Assembly: GCA_035571995.1 (NCBI GenBank)
Contig: DATNBK010000243.1
Span: 1-50,181, forward strand
DNA length: 50,181 bases
Origin: Rhodanobacter sp.
GTDB taxonomy: Bacteria > Pseudomonadota > Gammaproteobacteria > Xanthomonadales > Rhodanobacteraceae
Direction of reading: 5' to 3'
In this document: positions 23,419-39,665 of the stretch, piece after piece
Numbering within the stretch: the stretch's first letter is position 1
Layout of the letters: each line of letters opens with the position of its first letter
Notes under the pieces: model-generated
The model's input: only the letters and a program-made list of their open reading frames with translations
Database searches by the model: none
Told to the model about the DNA's origin: nothing
Made by a program: the position numbers and the translations under genes

Positions 23419-24237
23419 TTATGCCGGGGCGGACCGATCGGCGAAGGCCTGGTTAAGACGCTCCATCAGCACACCGTGGATGGCTCCGTTGGAGGCGCAG
23501 ACGGTGCCGCCCTGCAGATCGAGCGCCGTGCCAGTCGCCGAGGTGACCATGCCGCCGGCCTCGCGTACCAGGATCACGCCTGGTGCCATGTCCCAGGACT
23601 TGAGCGCACGTTCCCAGTAGGCGTCCCAGCGGCCGGCGGCGACGTAGGCCATGTCCACCGAGCAGGCGCCGGTGCGGCGGATGCCGGCGGTACGCGGCGA
23701 GAGCAAGGCCATCTCGCGGGCAAACACCGGATGGTCGGGTTTGCCGGCAAACGGGATGCCGCATGCAACCAGGCTGTCCACCAGGCGATGGCGGCTGGAG
23801 ACGTGGATGCGCTCGCCGTTGAGCCAGGCGCCGGCGCCTTGCTCGGCGACGTACATTTCGCCCAGGGCCGGCAACCAGCTGACGCCAGCCACCACCTCGC
23901 CCTCGCGCACCAGGGCCACGTTGACGCCCCATAGCGGCGTGCCAAACAGGAAGTTGGTGGTGCCATCCAGCGGGTCGACGACCCAGCTCTCGCCAGAATC
24001 GCGACCAATGGTCGTGCCGCCTTCCTCGCCGACGAAGCCGAACTTCGGATGCAGCTTGCCCAGCCTGTCGTGAATGCTGCGCTCGGCCTCCTCGTCGGCA
24101 ATCGAAACCAGGTCCGCCGGCCCGGTCTTGGTGCGTATCTGCAGCTCTCCAAGCTGGCTGAAGCGCCGCATCAGGCCGGCGCCGGCAGCCTCGGCCGCGC
24201 CGATCATGGCCTGAAGTTCACTTGAGGCTTGAAGCAT
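23419..24237 (-). CDS. Inositol monophosphatase family protein
   Basis: DLVSIAD, GEE, WVVDPLDGTTNF and WDMAPG motifs. Last gene of the iol operon, 3 bp after the transporter stop. Confidence 0.92.
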   Translation of the reverse strand: MLQASSELQAMIGAAEAAGAGLMRRFSQLGELQIRTKTGPADLVSIADEEAERSIHDRLGKLHPKFGFVGEEGGTTIGRDSGESWVVDPLDGTTNFLFGTPLWGVNVALVREGEVVAGVSWLPALGEMYVAEQGAGAWLNGERIHVSSRHRLVDSLVACGIPFAGKPDHPVFAREMALLSPRTAGIRRTGACSVDMAYVAAGRWDAYWERALKSWDMAPGVILVREAGGMVTSATGTALDLQGGTVCASNGAIHGVLMERLNQAFADRSAPA

Positions 24238-24240
24238 GGA

Positions 24241-25587
24241 TCAGTCCCTCCGTCGCACGCGCCACAGACTCAGCGCCAGCAGCATGGAAACCACCGAGGC
24301 GCCGATCCAGAAGCTGATCGCCGGACCGAAGTTGTAGTGATGCACGCCATCGACGACGGTGGTGCCTTGCTGGAGCAGACGTCCGGAAACCTGCTCCTCG
24401 ATGCCCGCGCCGATATAGCTGAAGATGCCGATCACGCCCATGGCTGCGCCGGCCACGCGCTTGGGCGCGATGTCCACGGCAAACAGGCCGCCCAGCGAGG
24501 TCACCAGTCCGGTCAGGCCCATGCCGTAGAGCAGCATGCTCACGATCAGCATCGGCAGGTTCGTCGGGCCGAAGAACAGCAGGCCCAGGCCGGTGAGCTC
24601 CAGCACTGCGAACATCAGGTTGACCGGCGGTCGACGTGCCTCGAACCACTCGTCGGAAATGAATCCGAACGCCACCGCCCCGACGATGCCCGCCAGCGTG
24701 CTGATCATCAACAAGGTGCCCGCCATCTCCAACGAATAGCCGCGTTCGGTCTGCAGGTAGAGGATGCCCCAGGAGTCGATTGCATAGCGGGCCACGTAGT
24801 TGGTGGCCGAGGCCAGGCACAGGATCCAGATCGACGGCAGCTTCAGGATCGACAGCTGTAGCGCCCACACGGACTTGATGTCCTGCCGCTTGGCCTCGCC
24901 GAAGCTGTCGTGCTTCCAGTCGTTGACGGCGGGTAGGCCCAGGGTTTGCGGGCGGTCCTGCAGCAACAGGTAGGCGCCGATCGCGGTGATCACACCGAGG
25001 ACGCCCGGGGCCCAATAACCCGCACGCCAACCGAACGTCGCCACCACCGCGCCGATGCCGACGAAGGTCAGCCCTTCCCCGATCGAATGCGCCGTGCTCC
25101 AGATGCCGTAGGTGCGGCCGCGCTCGTGGTTGGAGTACCACGCGGTCATGGCCACCACGCCGCCCGGCGCGCCGAAACTCTGGAACCAGCCGTTCAAGCC
25201 CCACACGACCACGGCCAGCCACAGCGTGGTGATGAAACCCATGGCCAGGTTGCACAGGGCCGTGGTCAGGAAGGCCACGGCCAGGAAGCGCTTCATGTTG
25301 GCGTGGTCGGCCAGGAAGCCGTTGGTCAGTTTGCCGACCGCGTAGGTGAAGAACAGCGCCGAGCCGATCATGCCCAGTTCGCTCGGGGTGAAGATGCCGG
25401 CGTCGAGGAGGGGCTTCTTCACCACGCCGAGCGCCAGCCGGCAGGTATAGATCAGGCCATAGCCGAGCGTGATCGCCAGCATGACGCGCAGGCGGTGTTT
25501 GCGGTACAGGCGATCGATCGTGCCTTGGTCGGCAATTGTCGGCAGATCCGCACCGGTTGCGAAAAACCTCAGCCAGCTAGCGGTCAT
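24241..25587 (-). CDS. MFS organophosphate:Pi antiporter family transporter (GlpT/UhpT/UhpC-like)
   Basis: GlpT-like segments YTCR (TM1 Arg), YAVGKL, LNGWFQSFG, ERGRTYGIWSTAH (His) and YVARY (TM7 Arg). Confidence 0.88.
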   Translation of the reverse strand: MTASWLRFFATGADLPTIADQGTIDRLYRKHRLRVMLAITLGYGLIYTCRLALGVVKKPLLDAGIFTPSELGMIGSALFFTYAVGKLTNGFLADHANMKRFLAVAFLTTALCNLAMGFITTLWLAVVVWGLNGWFQSFGAPGGVVAMTAWYSNHERGRTYGIWSTAHSIGEGLTFVGIGAVVATFGWRAGYWAPGVLGVITAIGAYLLLQDRPQTLGLPAVNDWKHDSFGEAKRQDIKSVWALQLSILKLPSIWILCLASATNYVARYAIDSWGILYLQTERGYSLEMAGTLLMISTLAGIVGAVAFGFISDEWFEARRPPVNLMFAVLELTGLGLLFFGPTNLPMLIVSMLLYGMGLTGLVTSLGGLFAVDIAPKRVAGAAMGVIGIFSYIGAGIEEQVSGRLLQQGTTVVDGVHHYNFGPAISFWIGASVVSMLLALSLWRVRRRD

Positions 25588-25676
25588 GTCGAATCCCCTC
25601 GATGGGCCGGGACCTGGTCGCCGGCAAATTGCAGTCGGCCCGCGTCATCTCGGCGCCGCCGGAACAGGCGCCTGGG

Positions 25677-27173
<1,497 letters not shown>

Positions 27174-27176
27174 GGC

Positions 27177-27995
27177 TCACTCCTTGGATGAGGTACGTCG
27201 AGCGATCCAGTCGTGTGCCGGGTCGTTGCGGAAGATCCACTGGCGGTGCTGGCCCGCCATCACATTGAGGTAATACAGGTCGTAGCCGTGCGGCGTGCCG
27301 ACTGGGTGGTAGCCGCGCGGCACCAGCACCACGTCGCCGTCCTCCACGCAGACGGTTTCGTCGAGCGCGCGGTCGTCGGTGTACACGCGCTGGAAAGCGA
27401 AACCCTGTGCCGGTTGCAGCCGGTGGTAATAGGTTTCCTCCAGCGCGGTTTCCGCTTCCGCGGCCGCGGTGTCGTGCTTGTGCGGCGGGTAGCTGGACCA
27501 GTGCCCGCCGGGCGTGATCACCTCGACCACCAGCAGGCTGTCGGCGGGTTCGGTCTGCGGCAGGATGTTGCGCACGTAGCGCGTGTTGGTGCCGGTGCCG
27601 CGCACCTCGCGGCTCATGGCCGATTCGTTGATCAGCCGGGGCTGGCCCTGGCCGGTGCCTGGCGCGCTGCATACGGCCAGTTCGACCGGGCCGCTGGCGA
27701 CCACCTCGTAGCGGCCGCCGGCGGGCACGTAGACGGCGCCGGGGGCGCGGTCCTCGAAAGGGCTGCTGCGGCCGCCGACGTGGGTGTAGCGCTGGCCGTC
27801 GACCGTGACGTCGGCCATGCCGGCCACGACCACCAGGCAGGTCTCGCGTCCCGCCTCGCCGCCGGCATGGCGCTGGCCAGCGGCCAGTCTCACCACCTTG
27901 AAACCGACGTATTTCCAACCGGCGCTGGCTGGGGTCACCTCGAGCACGCTGCCGTCGGCGGTGGCGGGATGCTGGCGAACGCGCAGGGAGGTCAT
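27177..27995 (-). CDS. iolB: 5-deoxy-glucuronate isomerase (272 aa)
   Basis: WSSYPPHKHD, LEETYYH, VPRGYHP and YYLNVMAG motifs. ATG at 27995 overlaps the iolE stop (TGATG). Confidence 0.93.
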   Translation of the reverse strand: MTSLRVRQHPATADGSVLEVTPASAGWKYVGFKVVRLAAGQRHAGGEAGRETCLVVVAGMADVTVDGQRYTHVGGRSSPFEDRAPGAVYVPAGGRYEVVASGPVELAVCSAPGTGQGQPRLINESAMSREVRGTGTNTRYVRNILPQTEPADSLLVVEVITPGGHWSSYPPHKHDTAAAEAETALEETYYHRLQPAQGFAFQRVYTDDRALDETVCVEDGDVVLVPRGYHPVGTPHGYDLYYLNVMAGQHRQWIFRNDPAHDWIARRTSSKE

Positions 27996-28885
27996 CAACG
28001 TAGTCCTGCTTCCGCCGCCAGGTCCTGCAGCGTGGTGAGGCCGAGCCTGGCATAGGTGCGGGGGTCGGCCAGGGCCGGATCCTGCTCGGCCTCGATCACG
28101 ATCCAGCCCTGGTAATGCATCGCCGCCAGCGCCGCCATGATGGCCGCGTAGTCCAGGTCGCCATCTCCCGGCACGGTGAACATGCCGGCCAACACGCCGT
28201 CGAGGAAGCTGGATCCTGCATCGCGCACCGCGTCGAACACGGACCGGCGCACGTCCTTGCAGTGCACGTGGGCGATGCGCCCGGGATGCTCGCGGATGAC
28301 CTGCACCGGATCGATGCCGCCCAGCGTCGCGTGCCCGGTGTCCAGGGTCAGCCCGACGGCGGGACCGGTGTAGGCGAGGAAGGCGCGCAGGTCCTCTGGT
28401 CGTTCGACCACGGTACCCAGGTGATGGTGGTAGGCAAAGCGGAGGCCCTGGTCCTGGATGTGGTCGGCCACTTCGGTCATGCGCCGGCCGAAGCGCGGCC
28501 ACTCAGCCGCATCCAGGCGCGGCGTATCGCGCAGGCTGCGGTCGCGCCGGCCATGGATCGCATTGCTGGTCTCGGCAAAGACGAACACCGTGCTGCCCAT
28601 GGCCTTGAGCAGGGCCAGGTGCGGCTGCAAGGCCGTGATCTCGTCCTGCGCCGAGCGCTCGAGCAGCGAGCCGCTGTACCAGCCGCCGATCAGGTCCAGC
28701 CGATAGCGCGCCAGCAGTGGTTTCAAGGTAGCCGCGTCACGCGGGAACTTGCCGCCGAGTTCCACCCCCTCGAAGCCGAGCTCCTGGATGTCGCCGAGGA
28801 TGCTCTCCAGCGGCGTGTCGCCGCCGAGTTCGGGCATGTCGTCGTTGGCCCAGGCGATCGGGCTGACGCCGAAACGGATACTCAT
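27995..28885 (-). CDS. iolE: myo-inosose-2 dehydratase (296 aa)
   Basis: SPIAWANDDMPELGG, YHHHLGT, DTGH, HCKD and EAEQDP motifs. ATGA overlap with iolD. Confidence 0.94.
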   Translation of the reverse strand: MSIRFGVSPIAWANDDMPELGGDTPLESILGDIQELGFEGVELGGKFPRDAATLKPLLARYRLDLIGGWYSGSLLERSAQDEITALQPHLALLKAMGSTVFVFAETSNAIHGRRDRSLRDTPRLDAAEWPRFGRRMTEVADHIQDQGLRFAYHHHLGTVVERPEDLRAFLAYTGPAVGLTLDTGHATLGGIDPVQVIREHPGRIAHVHCKDVRRSVFDAVRDAGSSFLDGVLAGMFTVPGDGDLDYAAIMAALAAMHYQGWIVIEAEQDPALADPRTYARLGLTTLQDLAAEAGLR

Positions 28886-30714
28886 GACAAATCCTTCTTG
28901 TGCTGGACGCCTCGTTCGTAGCCGCGACGTGCGGCTTCGACCTCGGGGCGTGTGGAGACTTCCGGTACCGCCACGTTCCACCACCAGCCGCCGGCGTCGG
29001 TGGCCTTGCGCGGATCGGTGTCGACCACCACCACGTAGCTGCGCTCGGCCGCCCGTGCGCGGGCCAGCGCCGACACCAGTTCGCCCACCGTGGCGGCGTG
29101 TTCGGACAACGCGCCGAGGCTCGCGGCATGGGCGGCGAAATCGATCGTCGGAAGCACCTGGTGCGCGGCGTCGGCCAGCAGGTTGTTGAAGCCGGCGCCA
29201 CCGGTGGCGTGCTGCAGCCGGTGGATGCACCCGAAGCCGCGGTTGTCCAGTACCACGACGACGAGCTTCAGGCCGAGCATCACCGACGTGGCGAGCTCCG
29301 AGTTGAGCATGAGGTAGCTGCCATCGCCGACCATGACCACGACCTCGCGTTCGGGCGCGGCCATCTTCACGCCGACGCCCCCGGCAATCTCGTAGCCCAT
29401 GCACGAATAGCCGTATTCGACGTGGTAGCCACCGCTGCGCGCGGTGCGCCACAGCTTGTGCAATTCGCCCGGCAGGCCGCCGGCGGCACAGACCACCACG
29501 GCATCGTCGCCGACGCTGCGTTGCACGGCGCCGATCACCTGGGCGTCGCTGGGTAGAGCCTGGTCAGCGGACGCAGCCGTCGCGGCATCCACCGCCGCGT
29601 TCCATGCAGCCACTTCGTCACCGTGGATCGACGGCGCCCGCCAGCCTTCCAGCGCCGCTGCCAGCGCCTGCAGCACCGTGCGCGCATCGCCGACCACCGG
29701 CAAGGCATCGTGCTTGTACGCATCGAAGGGCTGCACGTTGATCTGCGCCCGTCGCGCGTCGGGGAACAGGCTGCGTGAGCCGGTGGTGAAATCCGCCAGT
29801 CGCGTGCCCACGCCGATCACGAGGTCGGCGCGCGCCGCCGCGGCATTGGCCGCGCTGGCGCCGGTGACCCCGATGGAACCCAGGGCGCAGGGATGGTTCC
29901 ACGGCAGCGCGCCCTTGCCGGCCTGGGTTTCCGCTACGGCCAGGCCGGTGGCTTCCGCCAAGGTCGCCAGCGCCGCCTCGGCCTCGCTGTAGAGCACGCC
30001 GCCGCCGGCGACCAGCAGGGGGTGTCGTGCGGCCTTCAGCGCGGCGACCAGGGCGTCCAGCTCGCCTTGGTCGGCGCGTTGGCGGCGCTCACCCCACAGC
30101 CGCCGCGTAAAGAACGCTTCAGGGTAGTCATAAGCCTCGGCCTGCACGTCCTGGCAGAAGGCGAGGGTTGCCGGTCCACAGCACGCGGGATCGAGCAGCG
30201 TGGCCAGCGCCTTGGGCAGCGCATCCATGATCTGTTCTGGCCGGGTGATGCGGTCGAAGTACCGCGACACCGGGCGGAAGCAGTCGTTTACCGAGACCGT
30301 GCCGTCGGCAAAGTCCTCGATCTGCTGCAGGACCGGATCGGGGTGGCGGCTGGCGAACACGTCGCCGGGCAGGAACAGCACGGGCAGGCGGTCGGCATGG
30401 GCCAGGGCGGCCGCGGTGACCATGTTGGTCGCGCCGGGGCCGATCGACGAGGTGCAGACCATGGCGCGGCGGCGCCGCATCTGCTTGGCATAGGCGATGG
30501 CGGCATGGGCCATGCCTTGCTCGTTGTGCGCGCGCCAGGTTGGAAAATTCCCGCGTGCGGCGTACAGCGCCTCGCCCAGACCTGCCACGTTGCCGTGCCC
30601 GAAGATTGCCCAGGCGCCGGCGAAGTACGGCAACTCGCGGCCGGCGACGGTCACGTATTGTGCGGCCAGCCAGCGGATCGTGGCCTGGGCGGCGGTCAGT
30701 CGTACGCTGGCCAT
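28882..30714 (-). CDS. iolD: 3D-(3,5/4)-trihydroxycyclohexane-1,2-dione acylhydrolase, TPP-dependent (610 aa)
   Basis: IFGHGNVAG, NEQGMAH, SSIGPGATN, EYGYSCMGYE and GDGSYLM motifs. Confidence 0.95.
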   Translation of the reverse strand: MASVRLTAAQATIRWLAAQYVTVAGRELPYFAGAWAIFGHGNVAGLGEALYAARGNFPTWRAHNEQGMAHAAIAYAKQMRRRRAMVCTSSIGPGATNMVTAAALAHADRLPVLFLPGDVFASRHPDPVLQQIEDFADGTVSVNDCFRPVSRYFDRITRPEQIMDALPKALATLLDPACCGPATLAFCQDVQAEAYDYPEAFFTRRLWGERRQRADQGELDALVAALKAARHPLLVAGGGVLYSEAEAALATLAEATGLAVAETQAGKGALPWNHPCALGSIGVTGASAANAAAARADLVIGVGTRLADFTTGSRSLFPDARRAQINVQPFDAYKHDALPVVGDARTVLQALAAALEGWRAPSIHGDEVAAWNAAVDAATAASADQALPSDAQVIGAVQRSVGDDAVVVCAAGGLPGELHKLWRTARSGGYHVEYGYSCMGYEIAGGVGVKMAAPEREVVVMVGDGSYLMLNSELATSVMLGLKLVVVVLDNRGFGCIHRLQHATGGAGFNNLLADAAHQVLPTIDFAAHAASLGALSEHAATVGELVSALARARAAERSYVVVVDTDPRKATDAGGWWWNVAVPEVSTRPEVEAARRGYERGVQHKKDLS

Positions 30715-30715: not shown

Positions 30716-32653
30716 TCACACCGCCTCGCGTCGGGCTGGCGGCGACGCCACGCGCGCCTTGCGCCAGGCCTCGACCAGCACGGCGAAGCGCGCGGACAGC
30801 TCGGCGATGGCCGCTTCGTCGTCGATGGCGCCGGCCAACCAGCGCGCGGCAGGCTCGGCGAAAATCGTGCGGCCCACCGCGAAGCCCTTGACGATGGGGC
30901 TGGCGGCAGCGGTGCGGAAGGATTCGACCAGCACCTCGCTGGGCGCCTGCAGGCCGAGCAGCAGTACGCCGCGGCACAGCGGATCGTTGGCGCGGATCGC
31001 ACGCTCGATGTTGGCCCAGGTGGCGTCGTCGGCGGCGGGTTCGAGTTTCCACCAGTCCGGTTGCATGCCCCGATCATAGAGTTGCTGGATCGCGCGCGCC
31101 GCGGTCTGCGCATCGACCGTGCCGTGGCGCGAGGAGATCACCTCCACCAGCAGCTCGTGACGGGTCTTGCGGCAGGCGTCCTGCAACCGCAGCAATTGCC
31201 GCTCCTGTTGCGCGCACAACGCCAACGGATCGTCCGGGTGATAGAACACCAGGCACTTGACCACGTGGTTGTACGGCCAGGTGACGATTTCGGTGGCCAC
31301 GTCGGCGGAGCTCTCGAACGCAAGCGGACGTGAGCCGGGCGACTCGATCGGGCGGCCGATCCAGTAGGGATGATCGGCCGCAGCCTCCAGGCCGCGCATG
31401 CCGTAGCGGCCGTCCAGCAGCACGCCGAAGCGGCCGTTGCCCTGGGCCAGCCGGTCCACGGCCTGCAGCGCCAACGCCTTGAATGCCGGGATGCGCGCCG
31501 GGTCGGCACCGGTCTGTCGGCACAAGTCCTCGAATTGGCTGCGATGGTCCATCGCCAGCACAGTGAGATCCTCGTCCAGTCGGGCGCGGGTGGCGGCCCA
31601 GTGCATGTGCTCAAGTTCCTTGTCGTCGCGTAGTCGGAACGGCCGCGGGCTCTCGTTCAGGAACAGCTGCAGCTCGTCCCAGGTCGGCATCGCCGGCGCG
31701 CAGCCGTGCCGCGAAACCACGATGGCGCCGCAGGCGTTGCCGTATTCGCAGCATCGCGGCAGCGGTTCGTCGCGCAGCCAGCCGCGCAGGAAGCCGGCCA
31801 TGAACGCGTCGCCGGCGCCGAGCACGTTGAACACTTCGACCTTGAAGCCGCGCCCGACCACGCCCTGGTCCAGACTGTCCGGGATCGCCTCGGGGAAGGC
31901 CGCACAGCCCAGTGCGCCGCGCTTGCATACAAGCAACGCCGGCGTCTGCGCGCGGATCGCCCGCAGCGCCGCGACGGTGTCGGTGCTGCCGCCGAGGATG
32001 TGGATTTCCTCCTCGGTACCCACGATCAGGTCGCACAGCGGCAACACCTGCTGAAGGCGCGTGGTGACGTCCGGGTTGGCGACAAAGCGGTTCTCGCCCA
32101 TGTCGCGTCCGGTCAGCCCCCACAGCACCGGGCGGTAGTCGATGTCGAACACCACCTTCGCGCCGACCGCGCGGGCCAGGCCGCAGGCATGCACCGAGGC
32201 GTCGAACACGTTCGGCTGCGACAGGTGCGTGCCGTTCACCAGCACGGCGCCGGACGATTGCACGAACGCCGCGTCAATGTCCGCCGTGGTCAGCGCCATG
32301 TCGGCGCAGTTCTCGCGATAGAAGATCAGCGGAAAGGTATCCGGATCGCTGATGCCGAGAAAGACCAGCGCGGTCAGCCGCGCGGGATCGGTGACGACGC
32401 CCCGTGTCGAGACGTCCTCGCGGAGCAACTGCTCGCGGATGAAGCGGCCGAAGTGGTCGGCACCGACGCGCGTGATCAGCCCGCTGCGCAAGCCGAGCCT
32501 GGCGGCACCGATGGCGGTGTTGGTCGGGCTGCCGCCGATGTACTTGGCGAATGACAGCATGTCCTCGAGGCGGCCGCCGGTCTGCTCGCCGTACAGGTCG
32601 ACGCCGGAGCGGCCGATCGTTACCAGGTCAAACTGGCGCTCCGCCCCCTTCAT
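30716..32653 (-). CDS. iolC: Bifunctional 5-dehydro-2-deoxygluconokinase / C-terminal aldolase (DUF2090)
   Basis: PfkB motifs GGSPTN and VLGAGDAF, plus C-terminal DHRSQF, PDWWKLE and GFAVGRTIF. Confidence 0.94.
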   Translation of the reverse strand: MKGAERQFDLVTIGRSGVDLYGEQTGGRLEDMLSFAKYIGGSPTNTAIGAARLGLRSGLITRVGADHFGRFIREQLLREDVSTRGVVTDPARLTALVFLGISDPDTFPLIFYRENCADMALTTADIDAAFVQSSGAVLVNGTHLSQPNVFDASVHACGLARAVGAKVVFDIDYRPVLWGLTGRDMGENRFVANPDVTTRLQQVLPLCDLIVGTEEEIHILGGSTDTVAALRAIRAQTPALLVCKRGALGCAAFPEAIPDSLDQGVVGRGFKVEVFNVLGAGDAFMAGFLRGWLRDEPLPRCCEYGNACGAIVVSRHGCAPAMPTWDELQLFLNESPRPFRLRDDKELEHMHWAATRARLDEDLTVLAMDHRSQFEDLCRQTGADPARIPAFKALALQAVDRLAQGNGRFGVLLDGRYGMRGLEAAADHPYWIGRPIESPGSRPLAFESSADVATEIVTWPYNHVVKCLVFYHPDDPLALCAQQERQLLRLQDACRKTRHELLVEVISSRHGTVDAQTAARAIQQLYDRGMQPDWWKLEPAADDATWANIERAIRANDPLCRGVLLLGLQAPSEVLVESFRTAAASPIVKGFAVGRTIFAEPAARWLAGAIDDEAAIAELSARFAVLVEAWRKARVASPPARREAV

Positions 32654-32700
32654 GCCTGCATTCCCTCACCCCTGGCCCGGCGCCAATCGCACCACTTGAT

Positions 32701-32733
32701 GTAATATATATTCCAAACGTATCAGAAACACAA
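32701..32733 (-). promoter_or_regulatory. Putative sigma70 promoter of the iolC operon with overlapping IolR box
   Basis: Minus strand reads TTGTGT-N17-TATATA. GTAA-TATATA-TTCC at 32701-32714 has one mismatch to GGAA-N6-TTCC. Confidence 0.65.
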
Positions 32734-32741: not shown

Positions 32742-33632
32742 TCATTTCTTCGACGGATGGCGAGTGCTGGCCTTGGCCGTGTCGCGCGGACGCTCGTTGC
32801 TGGCGAAGGCATAGGAGATCACCAGTGCCTGGGCCAGGCACATCGACGCCGACAGCGAGCGGAACTTGCGGATTTCGGCTTCGCGGACCTGCAGTACCAG
32901 GGTGGAGGACCTTGCCACCGGGCTCACCGGGCTGTCGCTGATCGACAAGACCTTGCAGCGCTGCGCGCTGGCCTGGTCGATCAGTTGCACCGTCTCCTCC
33001 GCGTAAGGTCGATAGCTCACCGCGATCAGTAGGTCGCGCCGGGTGATGGCATGGATCTGCTGGTGCAGCATGCCGCCGATGCCGTCGATGAACACGGTTT
33101 TCTTGTTCACCTGATGCAGCGAGTAGGCGAGATAGGCTGCCACCGGGAAAGAGCGGCGGAAGCCGGTCACGTAAACGGTCTCGGCGGCGGCAATGAGTTT
33201 GACCGCGGCTTCCAGGTCCTTGGCGCCGACCGCATCGTCGAGATTGTTCAGGGCCAGCACGTTGCCCTCGACGAATTCAGCCAGTACCTGGCTGGGCTTG
33301 CCCACGGACTTGCTGTTCACCGACTGGCTGAACTGGCGCACGCGTTCGCCGTAGCCAAGCGATGCGTTGCCGGAGAGCAGGCCGTCGCGAAACAGGCGCT
33401 GCATCTGCGAAGCGCCGTCGAAGCCAAAGGACTTGGCGAAGCGCACGATTGCCGAAGGCTGCACGCCGCAACGTTCGGCCAGCACGGCGAGGGTCTCCAG
33501 CGCCAGGGCATTGGGCTCGTCCAGCACGTAGCGGGCAATCTGCTTCAGGCGCTTGCTCAATGCGTCGTAGCGCTCGAGGATCGCCGCGCGCAGCTCTTCG
33601 GCGCTGGCGGGAGGAGTATCCAGTTCAACCAT
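32742..33632 (-). CDS. iolR: RpiR/MurR family transcriptional regulator (IolR), 296 aa
   Basis: LSKRLKQIA, HTH region VQPSAIVRFAKSFGFDG and SIS domain GFRRSFPVAAY. ATG at 33632. Confidence 0.9.
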   Translation of the reverse strand: MVELDTPPASAEELRAAILERYDALSKRLKQIARYVLDEPNALALETLAVLAERCGVQPSAIVRFAKSFGFDGASQMQRLFRDGLLSGNASLGYGERVRQFSQSVNSKSVGKPSQVLAEFVEGNVLALNNLDDAVGAKDLEAAVKLIAAAETVYVTGFRRSFPVAAYLAYSLHQVNKKTVFIDGIGGMLHQQIHAITRRDLLIAVSYRPYAEETVQLIDQASAQRCKVLSISDSPVSPVARSSTLVLQVREAEIRKFRSLSASMCLAQALVISYAFASNERPRDTAKASTRHPSKK

Positions 33633-33729
33633 TCGGTTTGTCCTTGGGTATGGGGGCCGGTCGGCGCGGTGCGGACGGTGGCGATCGATAGGTGACGCCG
33701 TGGGCCGAAATTCTATTATACTTTGAGTC

Positions 33730-33743
33730 GGAAAATTGATTCC
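33730..33743. promoter_or_regulatory. Putative IolR operator in the iolR/iolG divergent region
   Basis: GGAA-AATTGA-TTCC is an exact GGAA-N6-TTCC palindrome. Confidence 0.75.
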
Positions 33744-33778
33744 ATTTTCGCCGCTGTCGCGGCACCAGGAGTCTACCC

Positions 33779-34783
33779 TTGGAAACCGTTGCCGTTGCCT
33801 TGATCGGGGCCGGGCGCATGGGCCACGTGCATGGGCCGAATGCCGCCCGCCATCCCCGTCTGCGCCTGAAGTACGTGGTGGACCCGAGTCCGGCGGCCGC
33901 CGTATTCGCCGCCGACCACGATGCCACGATCGCCACGTTGCAGCAGGTCCTCGCCGATCCGGCGATCCGCGGCGTGCTGGTGTGCAGTCCCACCGACCAG
34001 CACCTCGGCCACGCGCTGGCGGCGGTTGGGGCGGGCAAGGCCGTGTTCTGCGAGAAGCCGATCGACCTGGACTTGGCCAAGGTGCGCGCGTCACAGCCGC
34101 TCTTTGCTGGCGCGCGCTTCCTGCTCGGCTTCAACCGCCGCTATGACCCGCAATTCGTGCGCCTCAAGCAGCAACTGGATGCGGGCACGGTGGGTCGGCT
34201 GGAGTCGCTGCACCTCGTGAACCACGATCCGGCGGCGCCGCCGCCCGGTTTCATTCCCACCAGTGGCGGCCTGTTCAAGGACTTCACCATCCACGACCTG
34301 GACCTGGCGCGCTGGCTGCTGGGCGAGGAGCCGGTGGAGGTATACGCCGTTGCCAGCTGCCTGGTCGATCCGGAGATTGGCCGCCAAGGCGACGTCGATA
34401 CTGCGCGCACCGTGCTCAAGACCGCCAGCGGGCGGTTGTGCGTGATCTCCAACACCCGTCGCAGCGGCTACGGCTACGACCAGCGCATCGAGGCGTTCGG
34501 CTCCAAGGGAATGATCTGCGCCGGCAACGTCGCCAACGACACCGTGCACGTGGTGACCGAGTCCGGGGATACCGGCGCGCCGATCCGGCCGGCATTTGCC
34601 GAGCGCTACCGCGATGCCTATCGCGCCGAGATCGAGCATTTCGCCGACGTGGTGTACGACCGCGCGGAACCGAAGACCGGCTATGCCGATGGGGTTGCCG
34701 CGTTGGCGCTGGCCGAGGCCTGCGCGTGGTCCGCGCAGCATGGCCAGGTATTCAGATTTTCGAGCGAGGCTCATCATGCATAA
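33779..34783 (+). CDS. iolG: Gfo/Idh/MocA inositol 2-dehydrogenase-like, paralog 1
   Basis: GAGRMG, CEKP, GFNRRYDP, SGGLFKDFTIHD and YGYDQRIE motifs. TTG start with AGGAG RBS. Confidence 0.85.
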   Translation: METVAVALIGAGRMGHVHGPNAARHPRLRLKYVVDPSPAAAVFAADHDATIATLQQVLADPAIRGVLVCSPTDQHLGHALAAVGAGKAVFCEKPIDLDLAKVRASQPLFAGARFLLGFNRRYDPQFVRLKQQLDAGTVGRLESLHLVNHDPAAPPPGFIPTSGGLFKDFTIHDLDLARWLLGEEPVEVYAVASCLVDPEIGRQGDVDTARTVLKTASGRLCVISNTRRSGYGYDQRIEAFGSKGMICAGNVANDTVHVVTESGDTGAPIRPAFAERYRDAYRAEIEHFADVVYDRAEPKTGYADGVAALALAEACAWSAQHGQVFRFSSEAHHA

Positions 34784-35753
34784 GGTCGTACTGGTTGGCG
34801 CCGGCCGCATTGGCCACATCCACGCCCGCAACGCGGTGTGGCAGCCGCGCCTGGAACTGGCCGGCGTGGTCGACGCGATCGAAGCCGCGGCACAGTCGCT
34901 CGCCGCCGAGGTGGGCAGCCGCGTGACCACCTTGGAGGCGACGCTGGCCGATCCCTCGATCCGCGGCGTGATCATCGCCAGCTCCACCAGCACGCACCTG
35001 GACTACTGCCTGCGTGCCGCCGCGGCCGGCAAGGTGATCTTTTGCGAGAAGCCGGTCGACCAGGACCTTGCGCGCGCCCGCGGTGCGCTCGCGACGCTCT
35101 CCGGCGCCAGGCTGCTGGTGGCGTTCAACCGTCGCTTCGACCCCAACTTCCAGGCCTTGAAAGCGCGGCTGGACAGCGGCGTGATCGGCGGCATCGAAAG
35201 CCTGCAGATCACCTCGAACGATCCGGCGCCGCCGCCGCCCGCCTATGTCGCCGTGTCCGGCGGATTGTTCAAGGACATGGCCATCCACGATTTCGACATG
35301 GCGCGCTGGCTGCTGGGCGAGGAGCCCGTCGAGGTCTACGCCACCGGCAGTTGCCTGGTCGACCCGGCCATCGGTGAGCTCGGCGACGTCGATACTGCGC
35401 GCACCATGCTGAAGACCACCGCCGGGCGCCTGTGCGTCATTTCCAACACGCGGCGCAGCGGTTATGGCTACGACCAGCGCATCGAGGCATTCGCCTCGGG
35501 TGGCATGGTGCGCGCCGACAACGTGCTGGAAAGCACGACCCAGGTCTGGAGCGAGGCGGGCATCGCCACCGATCCGCTGCAGAACTTCTTCCTGGACCGC
35601 TATGCCGCGGCCTATCGCCGCGAGATGGATCATTTTGCCGACATGCTCGACGGCGCACCGTCCGCGATCGGCTACGCCGATGGCGTGGCCGCGCTGGCCC
35701 TGGCCGAGGCGGCCACCGAGTCGGCACGGAGCGGCGCCCCGGTGCGGCTGTAG
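34776..35753 (+). CDS. iolG: Gfo/Idh/MocA inositol 2-dehydrogenase-like, paralog 2 (325 aa)
   Basis: GAGRIG, CEKP, FNRRFDP, SGGLFKDMAIHDFD and FFLDRY motifs. ATG at 34776 overlaps the end of paralog 1. Confidence 0.87.
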   Translation: MHKVVLVGAGRIGHIHARNAVWQPRLELAGVVDAIEAAAQSLAAEVGSRVTTLEATLADPSIRGVIIASSTSTHLDYCLRAAAAGKVIFCEKPVDQDLARARGALATLSGARLLVAFNRRFDPNFQALKARLDSGVIGGIESLQITSNDPAPPPPAYVAVSGGLFKDMAIHDFDMARWLLGEEPVEVYATGSCLVDPAIGELGDVDTARTMLKTTAGRLCVISNTRRSGYGYDQRIEAFASGGMVRADNVLESTTQVWSEAGIATDPLQNFFLDRYAAAYRREMDHFADMLDGAPSAIGYADGVAALALAEAATESARSGAPVRL

Positions 35754-35823: not shown

Positions 35824-35842
35824 ACGTGCAGTCCGGGCCGCG

Positions 35843-37177
35843 TCAGTTGCCCGCTGGCGTGCGCAGCGGCGGAACGAGTTTCGCCCTCACGATCTTCTCG
35901 AAGTCCGGAAGTGGGCAGAGTTCCGCACAACCGGGAATGTCGAGGTAGGTGTAGGAAGGCGGGTTCTGCGCATTGAGCGGTTGCAGGTCGCGGACCTGGT
36001 CCATCGTCTGCGAACGGTAGAAGGCATGCACGAACTGCTGGCCCGAGGTATCGGCCAGCACCTCGAAGCCGATCGCGCCGCCCGGTGGCGGATCATCGGC
36101 GGGGTAGCCCGGGACCTGCCAATGCACGCCCAGGAAGCCGCCGAGGTCGGCGATGTTGGTGTCGTGGCCTACCAGCGCCGTCAGCCTGGGGCCGCCTTCC
36201 ACGGCCTTCAGCATGCGCGAGGCCAGGGGTGATGCCGCACGCTCGGCGACGTAGGGCACGCGTGCCTCGTATTTGTACTTGATGATGTGGAACTGCTCCA
36301 GGGTTCCGATCTGCTCGCGGGTCAGGCGTCCCCACGCCACGTCCGGCATCGGCATGCCCTGCAGGTATTCCAACAGGAAGGTCTGGCTGACGGTCGAGGC
36401 GTGACTGAACGCCGGGCCGACACTGGCCGGGCCGTCCTTTTCCTCCACCAGGTCGGGCGACAGCCGTGAGATGTCGCACGCCGCCTTGGGCTGGCAACCC
36501 AGGGCGTGGTTGAGCAGGGCGAACAGCTCCGCGTGGGATTGCAGTTCGGCAGCGAGTCCGCCGGGGGGCGCCATGGCCTGCTGGGCCTGCAGGGCCTGCT
36601 TGGGGTCGATCGGCATGGAGTGGGCGTCGAACGGGTGGAATTCCAAATCGTCGCCCTTCGACGCAGGGAAGCTCACGGTGATCTTGCAGTCTGGCGCGAA
36701 ACCCTTGAGCCAGGCTTGTGCAGTTGCCCGGGTGCGCGGCGTGGCGCTGGCGGCGACGGTCAGCTCGCCAGCCGCGGGGCAGCCGGACGCGGGCAGCAAC
36801 CCGCGTGCCGCCCAGTTGCCGCGGTCCCAGGTGCCGACCAGGCTTGCCGCGTCGGCACCATGCGGGGTCAGTTCGCCAAAGTCCACCGGCCACTTTGGCC
36901 AGGGCTTGTCGTTCGTGCCGGGCGGGGACACGTTGGCCTTGGTGGGCGAGCGAACGCCGTGGCGCATCAGCATGACCACGCGCTCGAGCTTGAGCCCGGC
37001 GGTGGAGGCCGGGGATGGCGCGGCAGCCGTGGCGGTTCCGGGTACGGCCGCCGCGGCCGTGGCCGACGGTGCCGGGCTTGCCGTAACCTGAGAGGGTTGC
37101 TGCGAGCACGCGGCCAGGCCTGCGAACAGCAGGGATCCGGCAATCGTCGCCGACAGCAAGCGTGGGCTCATCTGCAT
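35843..37177 (-). CDS. Histidine acid phosphatase / phytase (AppA/Agp family), predicted lipoprotein, ~444 aa
   Basis: RHGVRSP (RHGxRxP), GELTPHG, RTRATA, GHDTN and PPGG motifs. Lipobox LAAC. AGGAG RBS before ATG 37177. Confidence 0.88.
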   Translation of the reverse strand: MQMSPRLLSATIAGSLLFAGLAACSQQPSQVTASPAPSATAAAAVPGTATAAAPSPASTAGLKLERVVMLMRHGVRSPTKANVSPPGTNDKPWPKWPVDFGELTPHGADAASLVGTWDRGNWAARGLLPASGCPAAGELTVAASATPRTRATAQAWLKGFAPDCKITVSFPASKGDDLEFHPFDAHSMPIDPKQALQAQQAMAPPGGLAAELQSHAELFALLNHALGCQPKAACDISRLSPDLVEEKDGPASVGPAFSHASTVSQTFLLEYLQGMPMPDVAWGRLTREQIGTLEQFHIIKYKYEARVPYVAERAASPLASRMLKAVEGGPRLTALVGHDTNIADLGGFLGVHWQVPGYPADDPPPGGAIGFEVLADTSGQQFVHAFYRSQTMDQVRDLQPLNAQNPPSYTYLDIPGCAELCPLPDFEKIVRAKLVPPLRTPAGN

Positions 37178-37339
37178 GGTCTTGCTCCTCATGGATTGGT
37201 GCATACCGGTGGCTGGTCGATGACCGGCTATGAACGGACGACTGTGCGGAACGACTTTATCAGCCGGTCAGCCGTCTCCCGGCCGGAGGGCTCCGCACGC
37301 CGGGTCCAGGAACGGGTGGTGCCGATTGCGCATGATCGT

Positions 37340-37359
37340 GCAGTCCGTCCGTGGACTGC
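37340..37359 (-). other. Stem-loop after the second TonB receptor gene
   Basis: GCAGTCC-GTCCGT-GGACTGC. Confidence 0.4.
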
Positions 37360-37373
37360 CGGCGCCGTTGCCG

Positions 37374-39665
37374 TCAGAACTTCATCGACAGGTCGAGGAA
37401 CACGCCGCGACCGGGCAAGCCAAAGTACATGTCGTCGCCGCTGACTTTCTGCGTGCCGGCGTACTCGGTGAGCTTGTGGACGTTGAACAAGTTGTTGATA
37501 TCCACGCTGACCGTGTAGCCCTTGCCGGTGAAGCCGCCGTCCAGGCTGCGGTAGCCCACGGTGGCATCGACGGCGAGGAAGCCACCCAGTGGTGCACCGT
37601 TGGCAAACATGCTGTTGCCGTCGTCGTCGGTGGTGTTGTCCAGTCCGTATTTGCGGCCGGTGAACTTGCTCATGATGGAGCCATAGAAACCATGGTCGCG
37701 GCCGTAGATCACGCCGAGCGCGCCTGTGATCTTCGGTGTCTGCGCGATCTGTACATCCGAATTCTTGTACGTCGCCTTGTTGTAGCTGGCGTTGGCGTAC
37801 AGGCTCACGGTGTCGGTGAGCGCCACGGTGGTCTCCAGCTCCAGGCCCTTGTAGATCGCTCCGGAGCCGTTGATGTAGGTGTTCTCGTTGCCGAGGTCGG
37901 TATGCACTTCGGTTTCCGCGAGCATGTTGGAGAAGTCGATGTAATAGACGGCGGCACCGAGGGTGAAGGCCGATGACGCATACGACGTGCCGATCTGGTA
38001 GTTGGTGGTGGTTTCCGGGCTCAGGTTCTTGGAGGATGCGACCTCGATGACGTCCACCGGTGGTGCCAGGAAGCCCTTGGCCGCCTGGATGTAGGCCGTC
38101 CAGTTGTCGGTGATCCACTCGTGCAGGGTCAGCGACGGCAGGGTGGCTGAATAAGTTGCCTCGGTGTACAGGGCGCTGCCATCTGCCTTGTTGATGGGCG
38201 CGTTCAGGTGGCGCGCCACCTGCGAATAACGCAGGCCCGGGCTCAACGTGAACTTGTCGTTGAGTACCCAATCGTATTGTGCGTACGGTTGCACCGTGTC
38301 GTCCGTGGTGCGGAAGTTGTACGAATACGGCGAGCCTTGCTTCGTGCCGGTGTTTTCGCCGGTGGTCAGGTCCTTGGCAAAAGCGTATTGATGGAAGATG
38401 TCGCGCTCGACCCAGAAACCGGCCTTGAGCGTGCCCGGACCAAGCTCGCGCTGCACGCGGAACACGTCGCCAAAGGCGTGATAGCCCGAGTCGGCCTGTT
38501 TGCCGCCGACATCCTCGGCGACCTTGCGGATCTTCTTGCCGTTGGCGTCGTAGAAGGTCACGCCGTTGTGGCTCGGATCGGTGTCGCTGGCGTCGGTGGC
38601 CTTGTTCGACCAGTGGTCGAAGCTGACGTAGTACACCTTGTTGTCGAGGTCCCACGCACCCACGCTGGTGCTGTAGCCGACATAGTTGAAGCTGGAATAG
38701 TAGGCCGCGTTGTTGTAGCCCTTGTAGTTCTGCGTGCGCGGATCGTTGCCGAGGCCGAAGCGCGGACCGAACTCGAGCACCTGGGCCTTGGTCTGGCCCT
38801 GCACCGTGTTCTGGTGCTGCTGGTTGTAGCTGACGACAAAGGTCAGCTTGCCGGTGGCGCCAATGTTGCTGATGGTTTTCAGGAACGCGTGCTCGCGCCG
38901 GTCATCCGTGCCCTTCAGGAAAGTCTCGCTCGATTGGCGTGACAGGTCGGCAAACGCGCTGGTGTTGGCGCCGAGCTTGCCGTCGCCGGCAACACCCACG
39001 GCGTGGTAATCCCAACTGCCGAGCGTCGCATACGGCGTGATGCCAGGCGTCGCATCCGGATCGCGCGAACGCAGCGCGATGGTGCCGCCAAACGTGGCGT
39101 TGCCGATGGTGTCGCCACCGCCCGGGCCGCGGTCGATCTGCGCCTGGCCGAGCACGTGGTTGCTGAAGTACGCCGAGGTGGTGTGGTGCAAGTCGGCGGC
39201 GTTGCCGAACGGAATGCCGTCGAACGTGATGTTGAACTGGCCGTCCTGGAACCCGCGGATGCTGATGCCTTCGTTCTTGCCCAGGCCCGGCCCCTCTGGC
39301 GAGGTGACGCTGACGCTGGGTGAATATTTGACGATGTCGTCGTAGCTGGAATCGATGCGCAGCGCGTCGCGGATGAAACGCGTGTCGATCACCGAGGACG
39401 GCTGGATCGCCTCCAGCGGCGGCGCGCTGGGCGCCAACTGGTTGACCGTGTTGCCGGTGACGAGGACGGCGTTGAGTTGCTTGACGCCCTTGGCTTTTTG
39501 CGTGGTGCTGTCCTGGGAGGACTGGGTGCCGCTGCTGGATTGTGCATCGGTGCTCGCAGGTGTTGGCGTGTCTCCAACTGCAGCCAATGCCAGGTCAGGT
39601 GCAACCAACAGGCAGCCACTCAGCAGCAGTGCCGTGTGCAACGCATTTCGACGAAAAGTGTGCAT
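37374..39665 (-). CDS. TonB-dependent receptor, candidate phytate/inositol-phosphate transporter (763 aa)
   Basis: Signal peptide, AVLVTG box, SIRGF..DGIP plug, NLFN and C-terminal LSMKF. GGGAG RBS. Directly upstream of the phytase gene. Confidence 0.9.
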   Translation of the reverse strand: MHTFRRNALHTALLLSGCLLVAPDLALAAVGDTPTPASTDAQSSSGTQSSQDSTTQKAKGVKQLNAVLVTGNTVNQLAPSAPPLEAIQPSSVIDTRFIRDALRIDSSYDDIVKYSPSVSVTSPEGPGLGKNEGISIRGFQDGQFNITFDGIPFGNAADLHHTTSAYFSNHVLGQAQIDRGPGGGDTIGNATFGGTIALRSRDPDATPGITPYATLGSWDYHAVGVAGDGKLGANTSAFADLSRQSSETFLKGTDDRREHAFLKTISNIGATGKLTFVVSYNQQHQNTVQGQTKAQVLEFGPRFGLGNDPRTQNYKGYNNAAYYSSFNYVGYSTSVGAWDLDNKVYYVSFDHWSNKATDASDTDPSHNGVTFYDANGKKIRKVAEDVGGKQADSGYHAFGDVFRVQRELGPGTLKAGFWVERDIFHQYAFAKDLTTGENTGTKQGSPYSYNFRTTDDTVQPYAQYDWVLNDKFTLSPGLRYSQVARHLNAPINKADGSALYTEATYSATLPSLTLHEWITDNWTAYIQAAKGFLAPPVDVIEVASSKNLSPETTTNYQIGTSYASSAFTLGAAVYYIDFSNMLAETEVHTDLGNENTYINGSGAIYKGLELETTVALTDTVSLYANASYNKATYKNSDVQIAQTPKITGALGVIYGRDHGFYGSIMSKFTGRKYGLDNTTDDDGNSMFANGAPLGGFLAVDATVGYRSLDGGFTGKGYTVSVDINNLFNVHKLTEYAGTQKVSGDDMYFGLPGRGVFLDLSMKF

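What the first reader, a model, noticed from the sequence alone, without database searches (positions are those of the whole stretch)
23419..39665. Complete phytate-utilisation locus that appears to import inositol monophosphate via an organophosphate antiporter
Seen: TonB receptor, lipoprotein histidine-acid phytase, two iolG, iolR, iolCDEBA, a GlpT/UhpT-type MFS and an inositol monophosphatase in one 16-kb block, with no inositol ABC transporter or sugar-porter gene. Established: AppA/Agp-type phytases remove phosphates stepwise and do not normally release free inositol, iolGEDBCA degrade myo-inositol, and OPA transporters exchange sugar/glycerol phosphates for Pi. Inference: InsP6 enters via the TBDT, is trimmed in the periplasm to a lower inositol phosphate (e.g. 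Ins(2)P), crosses the inner membrane by Pi antiport and is dephosphorylated in the cytoplasm. This would use phytate as a carbon source while exporting surplus phosphate. I do not know of this arrangement being characterised.
Basis: partly seen in the sequence, partly recalled or inferred. Interest (0 to 1): 0.85.

Follow-up and report, generated by a model that had tools for sequence, protein, structure and literature searches.

The report
Phytate-eating locus with inositol-phosphate antiporter
A Rhodanobacter-like bacterium carries a 16-kb block that joins a phytase and an outer-membrane receptor to a full set of inositol-breakdown genes, a phosphate-exchange carrier and an inositol monophosphatase; it likely eats phytate (the main phosphorus store of seeds) as carbon by importing inositol monophosphate, a predicted transport step that still has to be measured.

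Summary
All 12 genes are present. The block travels as a unit. Among close relatives of the GlpT-family (OPA) carrier, the inositol monophosphatase follows directly in 54 of 59 loci, and a phytase lies in 41 of 45 extended loci. In 16 iol clusters of the same family that lack the carrier, ABC transporter genes stand instead, with no monophosphatase or phytase. The carrier keeps GlpT's phosphate-binding residues, lacks the extra cations of a pyruvate-kinase-linked sister group, and has smaller side chains at three GlpT cavity positions. New here: an IolR-type operator sits in a conserved promoter of the receptor-phytase unit (26 of 30 loci, 2 of 28 controls), tying phytate capture to inositol (carbon) control. 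It is not without precedent: Klebsiella has a monophosphatase-carrier-PhyK gene row with a carrier 39-40% identical. The weak link is that canonical monophosphatases cleave Ins(2)P poorly. This scan noted the carrier-monophosphatase pair before on other DNA (e1-5239970). Verdict: new variant of a known kind.

The parts
23419..24237 (-). Inositol monophosphatase-family enzyme, dedicated paralogue, no signal peptide seen
   Evidence: PF00459 203 bits; below SuhB and HisN cut-offs; separate SuhB-like (C19) and CysQ-like (C42) genes exist in the genome; metal-binding motifs kept; directly after the carrier in 54 of 59 loci
24241..25587 (-). OPA-family (GlpT/UhpT-like) MFS carrier, candidate inositol-monophosphate:Pi antiporter
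   Evidence: Best PDB sequence hit and best fold hit is GlpT 1pw4 (model pLDDT 91.6); R50, K86, H167, R267 match GlpT R45, K80, H165, R269; own clade in tree
25677..27173 (-). iolA, CoA-acylating (methyl)malonate-semialdehyde dehydrogenase
   Evidence: TIGR01722 633 > 448.5
27177..27995 (-). iolB, 5-deoxy-glucuronate isomerase
   Evidence: TIGR04378 337 > 205
27995..28885 (-). iolE, myo-inosose-2 dehydratase
   Evidence: TIGR04379 390 > 290
28882..30714 (-). iolD, trihydroxycyclohexanedione acylhydrolase
   Evidence: TIGR04377 914 > 715
30716..32653 (-). iolC, fused kinase/aldolase (covers the IolJ step)
   Evidence: NF047869 746 > 600; TIGR04382 408 > 300
32700..32715 (.). IolR-type operator (one mismatch) upstream of iolC
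   Evidence: motif defined in Caulobacter (PMC2597717); found upstream of iolC in 25 of 47 upstream regions
32742..33632 (-). iolR, RpiR-family regulator
   Evidence: PF01418 + PF01380; Caulobacter IolR is RpiR-family
33729..33744 (.). IolR-type operator (the only perfect match in the window) between iolR and iolG1
33779..34783 (+). iolG1, inositol 2-dehydrogenase
   Evidence: TIGR04380 368 > 355
34776..35753 (+). iolG2, inositol 2-dehydrogenase
   Evidence: TIGR04380 396 > 355
35843..37177 (-). Histidine acid phosphatase, AppA/PhyK-like phytase, predicted lipoprotein
   Evidence: PF00328; AppA model 239 vs Agp model 171 bits, both under cut-off; 34% AppA, 33% PhyK, 29% Agp and AppA-type motifs; best PDB hits 4ars/4arv rank above glucose-1-phosphatases; lipobox
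37374..39665 (-). TonB-dependent receptor, cargo untested
   Evidence: PF00593 + PF07715; all 19 orthologue loci at >=60% identity have a histidine acid phosphatase immediately downstream
39735..39785 (-). Conserved promoter of the receptor-phytase unit: sigma-70-like -35 (39758-39763) and -10 (39735-39740) 17 nt apart, an IolR-type box between them (39740-39755) and a second weaker box upstream (39770-39785)
   Evidence: box in 26 of 30 cluster receptors, 2 of 28 receptor homologues outside such clusters, 6.3% of random windows; hexamers read by eye from the alignment, the consensus scan did not list them

Best explanation
The block is likely an inositol-controlled pathway for using phytate as a carbon source: the TonB receptor would bring inositol phosphates into the periplasm, the phytase would trim them to an inositol monophosphate, the GlpT-family carrier is predicted to import it in exchange for internal phosphate, the monophosphatase would free inositol in the cytoplasm, and the iolG/E/D/B/C/A enzymes would break it down. 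Shown here: the genes and their families, their conserved linkage, the carrier's retained phosphate-binding residues, and IolR-type operators before iolC, iolG and the receptor-phytase unit. From established knowledge: OPA carriers exchange organophosphates for internal Pi and are generally outside the Pho regulon (PMC9306846); iol chemistry. Inferred: the receptor's cargo, the phytase end product (Ins(2)P by analogy with AppA/PhyK, recalled), the carrier's substrate, the monophosphatase's specificity and repression by IolR. Antiport would return each imported phosphate, which suits growth on a substrate with six phosphates per six carbons.
For: Linkage: monophosphatase directly downstream of the carrier in 54 of 59 loci with enough sequence, an iol gene in 57 of 61 loci. 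In 45 extended loci (window plus 44 from 43 genomes, chosen for long contigs): phytase (HAP and/or beta-propeller) 41, TBDT 43, monophosphatase 42, iolCDEB 41; all 11 iolCDE loci with a beta-propeller phytase but no HAP carry PhoD. Control: 30 of 200 family genomes have iolD, 5 have the carrier, and all 5 are among the 30. In 16 of the 25 carrier-less clusters examined, 15 show a BLAST-labelled ABC component (the 16th by eye) and none shows monophosphatase, HAP or beta-propeller phytase within about 10 kb of iolD. Residues: 59-60 of 60 clade members keep the equivalents of GlpT R45, K80, H165, R269, Y38, Y76 and Y270, residues tied to Pi binding in PMC4598623; W138, E299 and Y362 become A, T, T (60, 60, 56 of 60); no added cation, unlike the pyruvate-kinase-linked group (5 of 5 with two extra basic residues). 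Regulation; no Pho-box-like match in the receptor promoter. Non-redundancy: 8 of 45 carrier loci also hold an ABC or sodium-solute transporter. Independent recruitment: Klebsiella row monophosphatase-carrier-PhyK uses a different monophosphatase lineage.
Against: No biochemical, transport or growth data. The carrier's wider subfamily also holds members beside pgtABC-like genes and pyruvate kinase (41-43% identity) and one beside glycerol-3-phosphate genes with a monophosphatase (L130), and the quick tree does not resolve which group is sister to the iol clade; whole-length diagnostic columns split 24 to 27 between Klebsiella and the pyruvate-kinase group. Canonical monophosphatases cleave Ins(2)P poorly. 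Five carrier loci lack the adjacent monophosphatase (L040, L042, L054, L056, L057) and 4 of 45 extended loci lack a phytase in the DNA held. PhoD in 28 of 45 loci could release free inositol in the periplasm and bypass the carrier. Three unrelated receptor types fill the same slot, so a single cargo is not shown. The genome is 80% complete, so an inositol porter may be missing from the assembly. Relatives are not independent samples.
Confidence: 0.7

Rival explanations
1. The carrier and monophosphatase do import and cleave an inositol monophosphate, but mainly Ins(1)P/Ins(3)P from phosphoinositide or other turnover, while the phytase product Ins(2)P is finished by a periplasmic phosphatase.
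For: Fits the known preference of monophosphatases for Ins(1)P and Ins(3)P over Ins(2)P (PMC4288329); a few loci keep carrier, monophosphatase and iol genes without a phytase in the DNA held (G349, G040, G007).
Against: A phytase is present in 41 of 45 loci; no phospholipase or glycerophosphodiester phosphodiesterase was among the recurrent neighbour families scanned; in Klebsiella the pair sits directly before PhyK; the window locus has no PhoD.
Confidence: 0.1
2. The carrier has become a free-inositol porter, or a plain Pi exporter, and phytate is fully dephosphorylated outside the cytoplasm.
For: It stands where other iol clusters have an ABC transporter; the window genome and 7 relatives (G010, G011, G013, G014, G016, G024, G028) show no sugar porter, no strong sugar-ABC binding protein and no strong sodium-solute hit; PhoD is common in relatives; Mitsuokella is reported to dephosphorylate phytate fully in the periplasm and use an inositol transporter (PMC7618129).
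Against: Every phosphate-binding residue is kept; a cytoplasmic monophosphatase would be pointless yet follows the carrier in 54 of 59 loci and in 0 of 16 ABC-type clusters; 8 of 45 loci keep both the carrier and an ABC or sodium-solute transporter.
Confidence: 0.09
3. The receptor-phytase pair is a phosphate-starvation scavenging unit that merely sits beside the iol genes; carbon use is secondary.
For: The same receptor family sits before a histidine acid phosphatase in 18 loci with a FecR-like gene upstream rather than this promoter; the Caulobacter phytase is needed for growth on phytate as sole phosphate source (PMC8963506).
Against: The receptor promoter carries the IolR-type box in 26 of 30 cluster loci against 2 of 28 elsewhere, and is conserved across three receptor types; Pho-box-like matches in the window are fewer than chance and none lies in this promoter; Pi antiport yields no net phosphate from the imported monophosphate.
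Confidence: 0.07
4. The MFS protein is a UhpC-like sensor that signals inositol phosphate to a two-component system instead of feeding catabolism.
For: UhpC is its best NCBIfam model and database names say 'UhpC-like'; many relatives have a PepSY protein and a two-component pair downstream (PepSY in 33 of 45).
Against: The score is less than half the UhpC cut-off; the tree places it outside the UhpC clade; the window locus has no two-component genes; it is embedded between iolA and the monophosphatase.
Confidence: 0.04

Closest known systems
Klebsiella LacI-monophosphatase-MFS-phyK gene row (PhyK 3-phytase, PDB 2wnh)
   Same: Same three-part core: monophosphatase-family gene, OPA-family carrier (39-40% identical; the window carrier is its best match in the window genome) and histidine acid phytase, in 3 of 3 records opened. 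Shares several cavity substitutions. K. pneumoniae CP-84, which has PhyK, was isolated on phytate as sole carbon and phosphorus source (PMC11219571). I recall thesis-level work describing phyK as co-transcribed with an inositol phosphatase and an 'inositol phosphate transporter'; this is recalled only and was not found in the library (Bohm 2010 and Sajidan 2004 not held).
   Different: Klebsiella has a LacI regulator and no receptor or iol genes within 10 kb; its monophosphatase is of another lineage; orthology of the two carriers is unresolved. Here the whole route from outer membrane to central metabolism is in one IolR-type regulon.
E. coli GlpT, UhpT and Salmonella PgtP (OPA family, TC 2.A.1.4; TC number from note e1-5239970 and recall)
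   Same: Fold (best Foldseek hit 1pw4, TM 0.73) and phosphate-binding residues.
   Different: 25-33% identity to GlpT, UhpT, UhpC; below every equivalog cut-off; K46L, W138A, E299T, Y362T changes; iol/phytase context. The review passages read list only G3P, hexose-6-phosphates, phosphoglycerates and PEP as OPA substrates (PMC9306846).
Caulobacter crescentus myo-inositol module (idhA, iolR, iolCDEBA; PMC2597717)
   Same: RpiR-type IolR, same catabolic genes, same palindromic operator. A phytase and its UrpRS regulators are described in this species; that they flank the iol genes is recalled, and matches the layout of Caulobacter relatives seen here.
   Different: C. crescentus imports free inositol through the ABC system IbpA-IatA-IatP, reported as its sole inositol transporter; the window locus has the OPA carrier and monophosphatase instead.
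Mitsuokella jalaludinii phytate pathway (PMC7618129)
   Same: Phytate used as carbon source through Ins(2)P, a periplasmic phytase and iol-type catabolism.
   Different: Authors name an inositol transporter and PstSCAB; no OPA carrier or monophosphatase appears in the passages read.

Membership tests
OPA (organophosphate:Pi antiporter) family | MFS fold with 12-helix topology closest to GlpT/SLC37 | tested here: met
   AlphaFold2 model pLDDT 91.6; top Foldseek hits GlpT and G6PT; phmmer top hit 1pw4 E 1.6e-45
OPA (organophosphate:Pi antiporter) family | Paired arginines and K80/H165 phosphate site | tested here: met
   R50, R267, K86, H167; K46 is Leu, a change that only weakens binding in GlpT
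OPA (organophosphate:Pi antiporter) family | Obligate exchange of organophosphate for Pi | not testable with these tools
   needs a transport assay
GlpT / UhpT / UhpC / PgtP orthologues | Curated NCBIfam score cut-off | tested here: not met
   206/632, 154/497, 266/564, 147/750 bits; separate clade
Klebsiella phyK-operon carrier | One clade with the Klebsiella protein to the exclusion of other groups | tested here: inconclusive
   Same subfamily (SH-aLRT 100) but three-way open fork with long branches in a quick tree; no test_one_clade run
iol catabolic gene cluster (IolCatGC) | At least three of the core genes iolB, C, D, E plus a dehydrogenase | tested here: met
   All four core genes and two iolG pass cut-offs; definition from PMC9430895
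Histidine acid phytase (AppA/PhyK type) | RHGxRxP and HD catalytic motifs, export signal | tested here: met
   Motifs at 72 and 338 match AppA/PhyK, not Agp; lipobox at 21-24
Histidine acid phytase (AppA/PhyK type) | AppA equivalog cut-off | tested here: not met
   239 of 585 bits
Histidine acid phytase (AppA/PhyK type) | Hydrolyses InsP6 to InsP1 | not testable with these tools
   needs HPLC/NMR of products
Inositol monophosphatase superfamily | PF00459 with metal-binding motifs | tested here: met
   203 bits; motifs aligned
SuhB (housekeeping) orthologue | NF008027 cut-off and being the genome's main SuhB | tested here: not met
   166 of 332 bits; a higher-scoring paralogue lies on contig C19
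IolR regulon (Caulobacter type) | RpiR-type IolR and the palindromic operator in iol promoters | tested here: met
IolR regulon (Caulobacter type) | IolR binds the box and represses | not testable with these tools
   needs EMSA or reporter assay

The most novel reading that the evidence does not exclude
This clade is a dedicated Ins(2)P:Pi antiporter working with a monophosphatase re-tuned to the axial 2-phosphate that phytases leave. Together they form a widespread, mobile 'selfish' phytate regulon that captures inositol carbon before competitors can, and returns all six phosphates to the environment. The IolR-controlled receptors would be the first outer-membrane transporters assignable to inositol phosphates.
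Probability: 0.4. Interest if true: 0.8.

Novelty: new variant of a known kind. Interest (0 to 1): 0.62.

Why it matters
How phytate carbon and phosphorus are released in soils and guts is an open practical question, and how a phytase's last product gets into a bacterial cell is poorly defined. The locus names specific, testable candidates for three missing parts: an inositol-monophosphate carrier (a new substrate class for the GlpT family), an Ins(2)P-capable phosphatase, and an outer-membrane receptor for inositol phosphates. If control is by inositol rather than by phosphate starvation, such bacteria would mineralise phytate even when phosphate is plentiful and release the phosphate, which bears on plant nutrition and phosphorus run-off. 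Cultured type strains carry the block (for example Rhodanobacter lindaniclasticus DSM 17932, Luteimonas mephitis DSM 12574, Pseudoxanthomonas daejeonensis DSM 17801), so it can be tested directly.

Tried and rejected
Single-sequence fold of the carrier failed (pLDDT 41.6); repeated with a 38-row alignment. The models could not be measured for cavity volume, so 'larger cavity' rests on side-chain size only. First ORF clustering was swamped by shadow ORFs and was replaced by a simple composition-based gene caller, which mis-calls some genes; key tallies were redone by tblastn, but the control-cluster absence of monophosphatase and phytase rests on called ORFs. The careful carrier tree did not finish; only the quick tree is used. 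Sigma-70 and terminator consensus scans were at chance level. Pho-box search was below chance (5 vs 11.7 expected; pattern recalled). RNA runs X4 and X6 (one study) hold short exact pieces including the carrier, but as contigs they cannot show transcription. A class-wide search with the Klebsiella carrier found only the window genome and one relative in 400 genomes, one genome not scored, so the spread of the Klebsiella type was not mapped. Ten literature searches returned no paper describing an OPA-type inositol-phosphate carrier or this cluster; the library lacks most subscription papers and theses, three wanted papers were not held, and no supplements were read. Rejected: glucose-1-phosphatase identity for the HAP; housekeeping SuhB identity for the monophosphatase; frameshift or pseudogene (all ORFs intact). 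No complex prediction was run, as no protein-protein binding is claimed.
Full report
Observation. ORF listing and start-site checks and Pfam/NCBIfam scans confirm twelve intact genes in 23419-39665: monophosphatase, OPA-type MFS carrier, iolA, iolB, iolE, iolD, iolC, RpiR-type iolR, two iolG, a histidine acid phosphatase and a TonB-dependent receptor. The seven catabolic genes pass curated cut-offs, and IolC is the fused kinase/aldolase, so the pathway is complete. From iolC to the monophosphatase the genes abut (-4 to +3 nt), except for 89 nt before the carrier. The genome is an 80% complete assembly. Its nearest carrier relatives are labelled Lysobacterales bacterium (91%) and Rhodanobacter sp. 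(88%), so I call it Rhodanobacter-like. No sugar-ABC binding protein, permease, full-length sugar porter or sodium-solute inositol-type carrier was found in it with these queries.

Linkage. A scan of GTDB genomes gave 62 loci; I dropped one distant hit (L064, 31%). The monophosphatase follows the carrier directly in 54 of 59 loci with enough downstream DNA, and an iol gene is present in 57 of 61. Extending 44 loci from 43 genomes chosen for long contigs and adding the window gives 45 loci: phytase in 41 (HAP 28, beta-propeller 37, both 24), receptor 43, monophosphatase 42, iolCDEB 41, PhoD 28. All 11 iolCDE loci with a beta-propeller phytase but no HAP carry PhoD, as expected if the product must be trimmed further (beta-propeller phytases stop at InsP3; PMC12482443 passages). 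The set spans Lysobacterales, Caulobacteraceae, betaproteobacterial and desulfobacterial MAGs and Ignavibacteria; the last keep carrier, receptor and phytase without the adjacent monophosphatase. These genomes are kin, so the counts are not independent trials.

Control clusters. Of 200 family genomes, 30 have iolD and 5 have the carrier; all 5 have iolD. I examined 16 of the 25 carrier-less clusters over about 20 kb: 15 show a BLAST-labelled ABC component, the 16th has permease-like ORFs by eye, and none shows the monophosphatase, HAP or beta-propeller phytase (based on a crude gene caller). The family thus has two kinds of iol cluster: an ABC type and the carrier-monophosphatase-phytase type. 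In 8 of 45 carrier loci an ABC or sodium-solute transporter is also present, which argues that the carrier is not simply a second free-inositol porter.

The carrier. Its best sequence and fold matches are GlpT and human G6PT. It fails the GlpT, UhpT, UhpC and PgtP cut-offs. In the alignment with E. coli GlpT, 59-60 of 60 clade members keep R45, K80, H165, R269, Y38, Y76 and Y270 equivalents, residues tied to Pi binding in PMC4598623 (passages). K46 is Leu, a change that only weakens binding in GlpT. W138, E299 and Y362 become Ala, Thr and Thr; their role in lining the cavity is recalled (Law 2009 not held). The pyruvate-kinase group has Arg at 165 and Lys at the UhpT D388 position (5 of 5), as fits a carboxylated substrate (recalled from UhpT work); the iol clade has neither. 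A single phosphate site with no extra cation points to a neutral polyol monophosphate rather than a polyphosphate. This is inference.

The phosphatases. The HAP is closer to AppA (34%) and PhyK (33%) than to Agp (29%) and has their motif type; PDB phytases outrank glucose-1-phosphatases. It has a lipobox. The monophosphatase shows no signal peptide, keeps the metal-binding motifs, and is additional to SuhB-like and CysQ-like genes elsewhere in the genome. The weak link: two plant monophosphatases cleave Ins(2)P at 0.94% and 17.8% of the Ins(1)P rate (PMC4288329 passages), while AppA/PhyK-type enzymes are recalled to stop at Ins(2)P. The enzyme must be atypical, or the imported isomer differs.

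The receptor and regulation. All 19 loci of receptor orthologues at 60% identity or more have a histidine acid phosphatase directly downstream, against 0 of 10 at about 35%, so the receptor family is tied to organophosphate hydrolysis; its cargo is untested. Boutte et al. defined a palindromic IolR operator in Caulobacter (PMC2597717 passages). The window has its only perfect match between iolR and iolG1, and one-mismatch sites before iolC and in the receptor promoter. That promoter is conserved across three unrelated receptor types: a box with at most one mismatch lies within 223 nt upstream in 26 of 30 cluster receptors (2 truncated ones skipped), against 2 of 28 receptor homologues outside such clusters and 6.3% of random windows. 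By eye the box sits between sigma-70-like -35 and -10 hexamers 17 nt apart, a repressor position. Thirteen relatives also have a perfect box about 84-97 nt before the carrier, among 84 OPA-family upstream regions scanned; internal genes iolD, iolB and iolE score 0 of 48, 1 of 50 and 1 of 51. The window's own carrier has no such box and likely rides on the iolC transcript. No Pho-box-like site lies in the receptor promoter. Capture, import and catabolism therefore look like one inositol-controlled unit.

Mechanism. Most likely (0.7): receptor-mediated entry of inositol phosphates, periplasmic trimming to a monophosphate, Pi-coupled import, cytoplasmic dephosphorylation, iol catabolism. Gene identities, linkage, residues and operators are shown; every substrate assignment is inferred. 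Rivals: Ins(1)P/Ins(3)P salvage (0.10), free-inositol or Pi carrier (0.09), phosphate-starvation unit (0.07), UhpC-like sensor (0.04).

Comparison with what is known. A protein search of plasmid-collection records led to Klebsiella, where LacI, monophosphatase, a 39-40% identical carrier and a histidine phosphatase lie in a row in 3 of 3 records opened; the phosphatase is PhyK (PDB 2wnh). A PhyK-bearing K. pneumoniae was isolated on phytate as sole carbon source (PMC11219571 passages). I recall thesis-level work naming these genes as an inositol phosphatase and inositol phosphate transporter, but could not find it (papers not held). Caulobacter crescentus has the same iol module with an ABC importer and a phytase (PMC8963506 passages). 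Mitsuokella uses phytate through Ins(2)P with an inositol transporter (PMC7618129 abstract and passages). A survey of iol clusters (PMC9430895 passages) has no occurrence of 'monophosphat' or 'TonB' in its main text, and a review of OPA carriers lists no inositol phosphate substrate in the passages read (PMC9306846). PMC12838507 and PMC4642748 (passages) added nothing on transport. Supplements were not read and could hold mentions.

Verdict. The feature is real and the reading is well supported by comparative evidence. It works like an OPA-fed catabolic operon and is a member of the OPA family and of the iol clusters, but not an orthologue of any named OPA carrier. Novelty: new variant of a known kind. 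Interest 0.62.

Noticed in passing
window 23328 to 39942/40008: One contig in each of two runs of one study (X7, X8) joins the DNA left of the block to the DNA right of it, skipping about 16.6 kb; the short sides are only 26 and 30 letters, so this is a weak hint that the block is an accessory islet with an empty site in close strains.
   Followed up: partly
L065, L082, L134, window versus L066-L104: Three unrelated TonB receptor types occupy the same slot behind one conserved promoter, suggesting gene replacement in place; loci with the window's receptor type lack the beta-propeller phytase.
   Followed up: partly
L004-L063 downstream of the monophosphatase: A recurrent cassette of PhoD, a receptor-like outer-membrane protein, a PepSY protein and a two-component pair follows the block in most relatives but not in the window; it resembles the Caulobacter UrpRS phytase regulator region (match to UrpRS not tested).
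   Followed up: partly
L108, L109, L110, L128, L129: A sister group of the carrier lies beside pgtABC-like regulators and pyruvate kinase, scores far below the PgtP cut-off and has two extra basic cavity residues: a possible second, independent PEP/phosphoglycerate carrier lineage.
   Followed up: partly
L130:9164-11327: An unnamed gammaproteobacterial genome has a Klebsiella-type carrier plus monophosphatase directly beside glycerol-3-phosphate dehydrogenase genes, with no phytase seen in 20 kb.
   Followed up: no
L054, L056, L057: Ignavibacteria carry the carrier with a PfkB-family kinase in place of the monophosphatase, next to a receptor, a beta-propeller phytase and sugar ABC genes.
   Followed up: no
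L156-L174: Close orthologues of the window's receptor in other family genomes sit behind a FecR-like gene and ahead of a divergent histidine acid phosphatase (28-33% identical), a possible signalling-type phosphatase/receptor unit; the FecR label is by eye.
   Followed up: no
window 40121-41611 (+): A 496-aa ORF with no Pfam or NCBIfam hit that looks like a kumamolisin/S53-type protease by eye; found in 19 of 60 same-genus genomes.
   Followed up: no
window 41881-47879 (-): imuA-imuB-dnaE2 error-prone replication cassette with an upstream LexA-like ORF.
   Followed up: no
window 20614-23271 (-): Fused GH17/GT2 glycosyltransferase, followed by tamA/tamB-like genes.
   Followed up: no
window 5298-8483 (-) and 48116-50181 (+): Two large sortilin/BNR-repeat (VPS10-like) proteins, one beside a TonB receptor and an M14 peptidase.
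   Followed up: no
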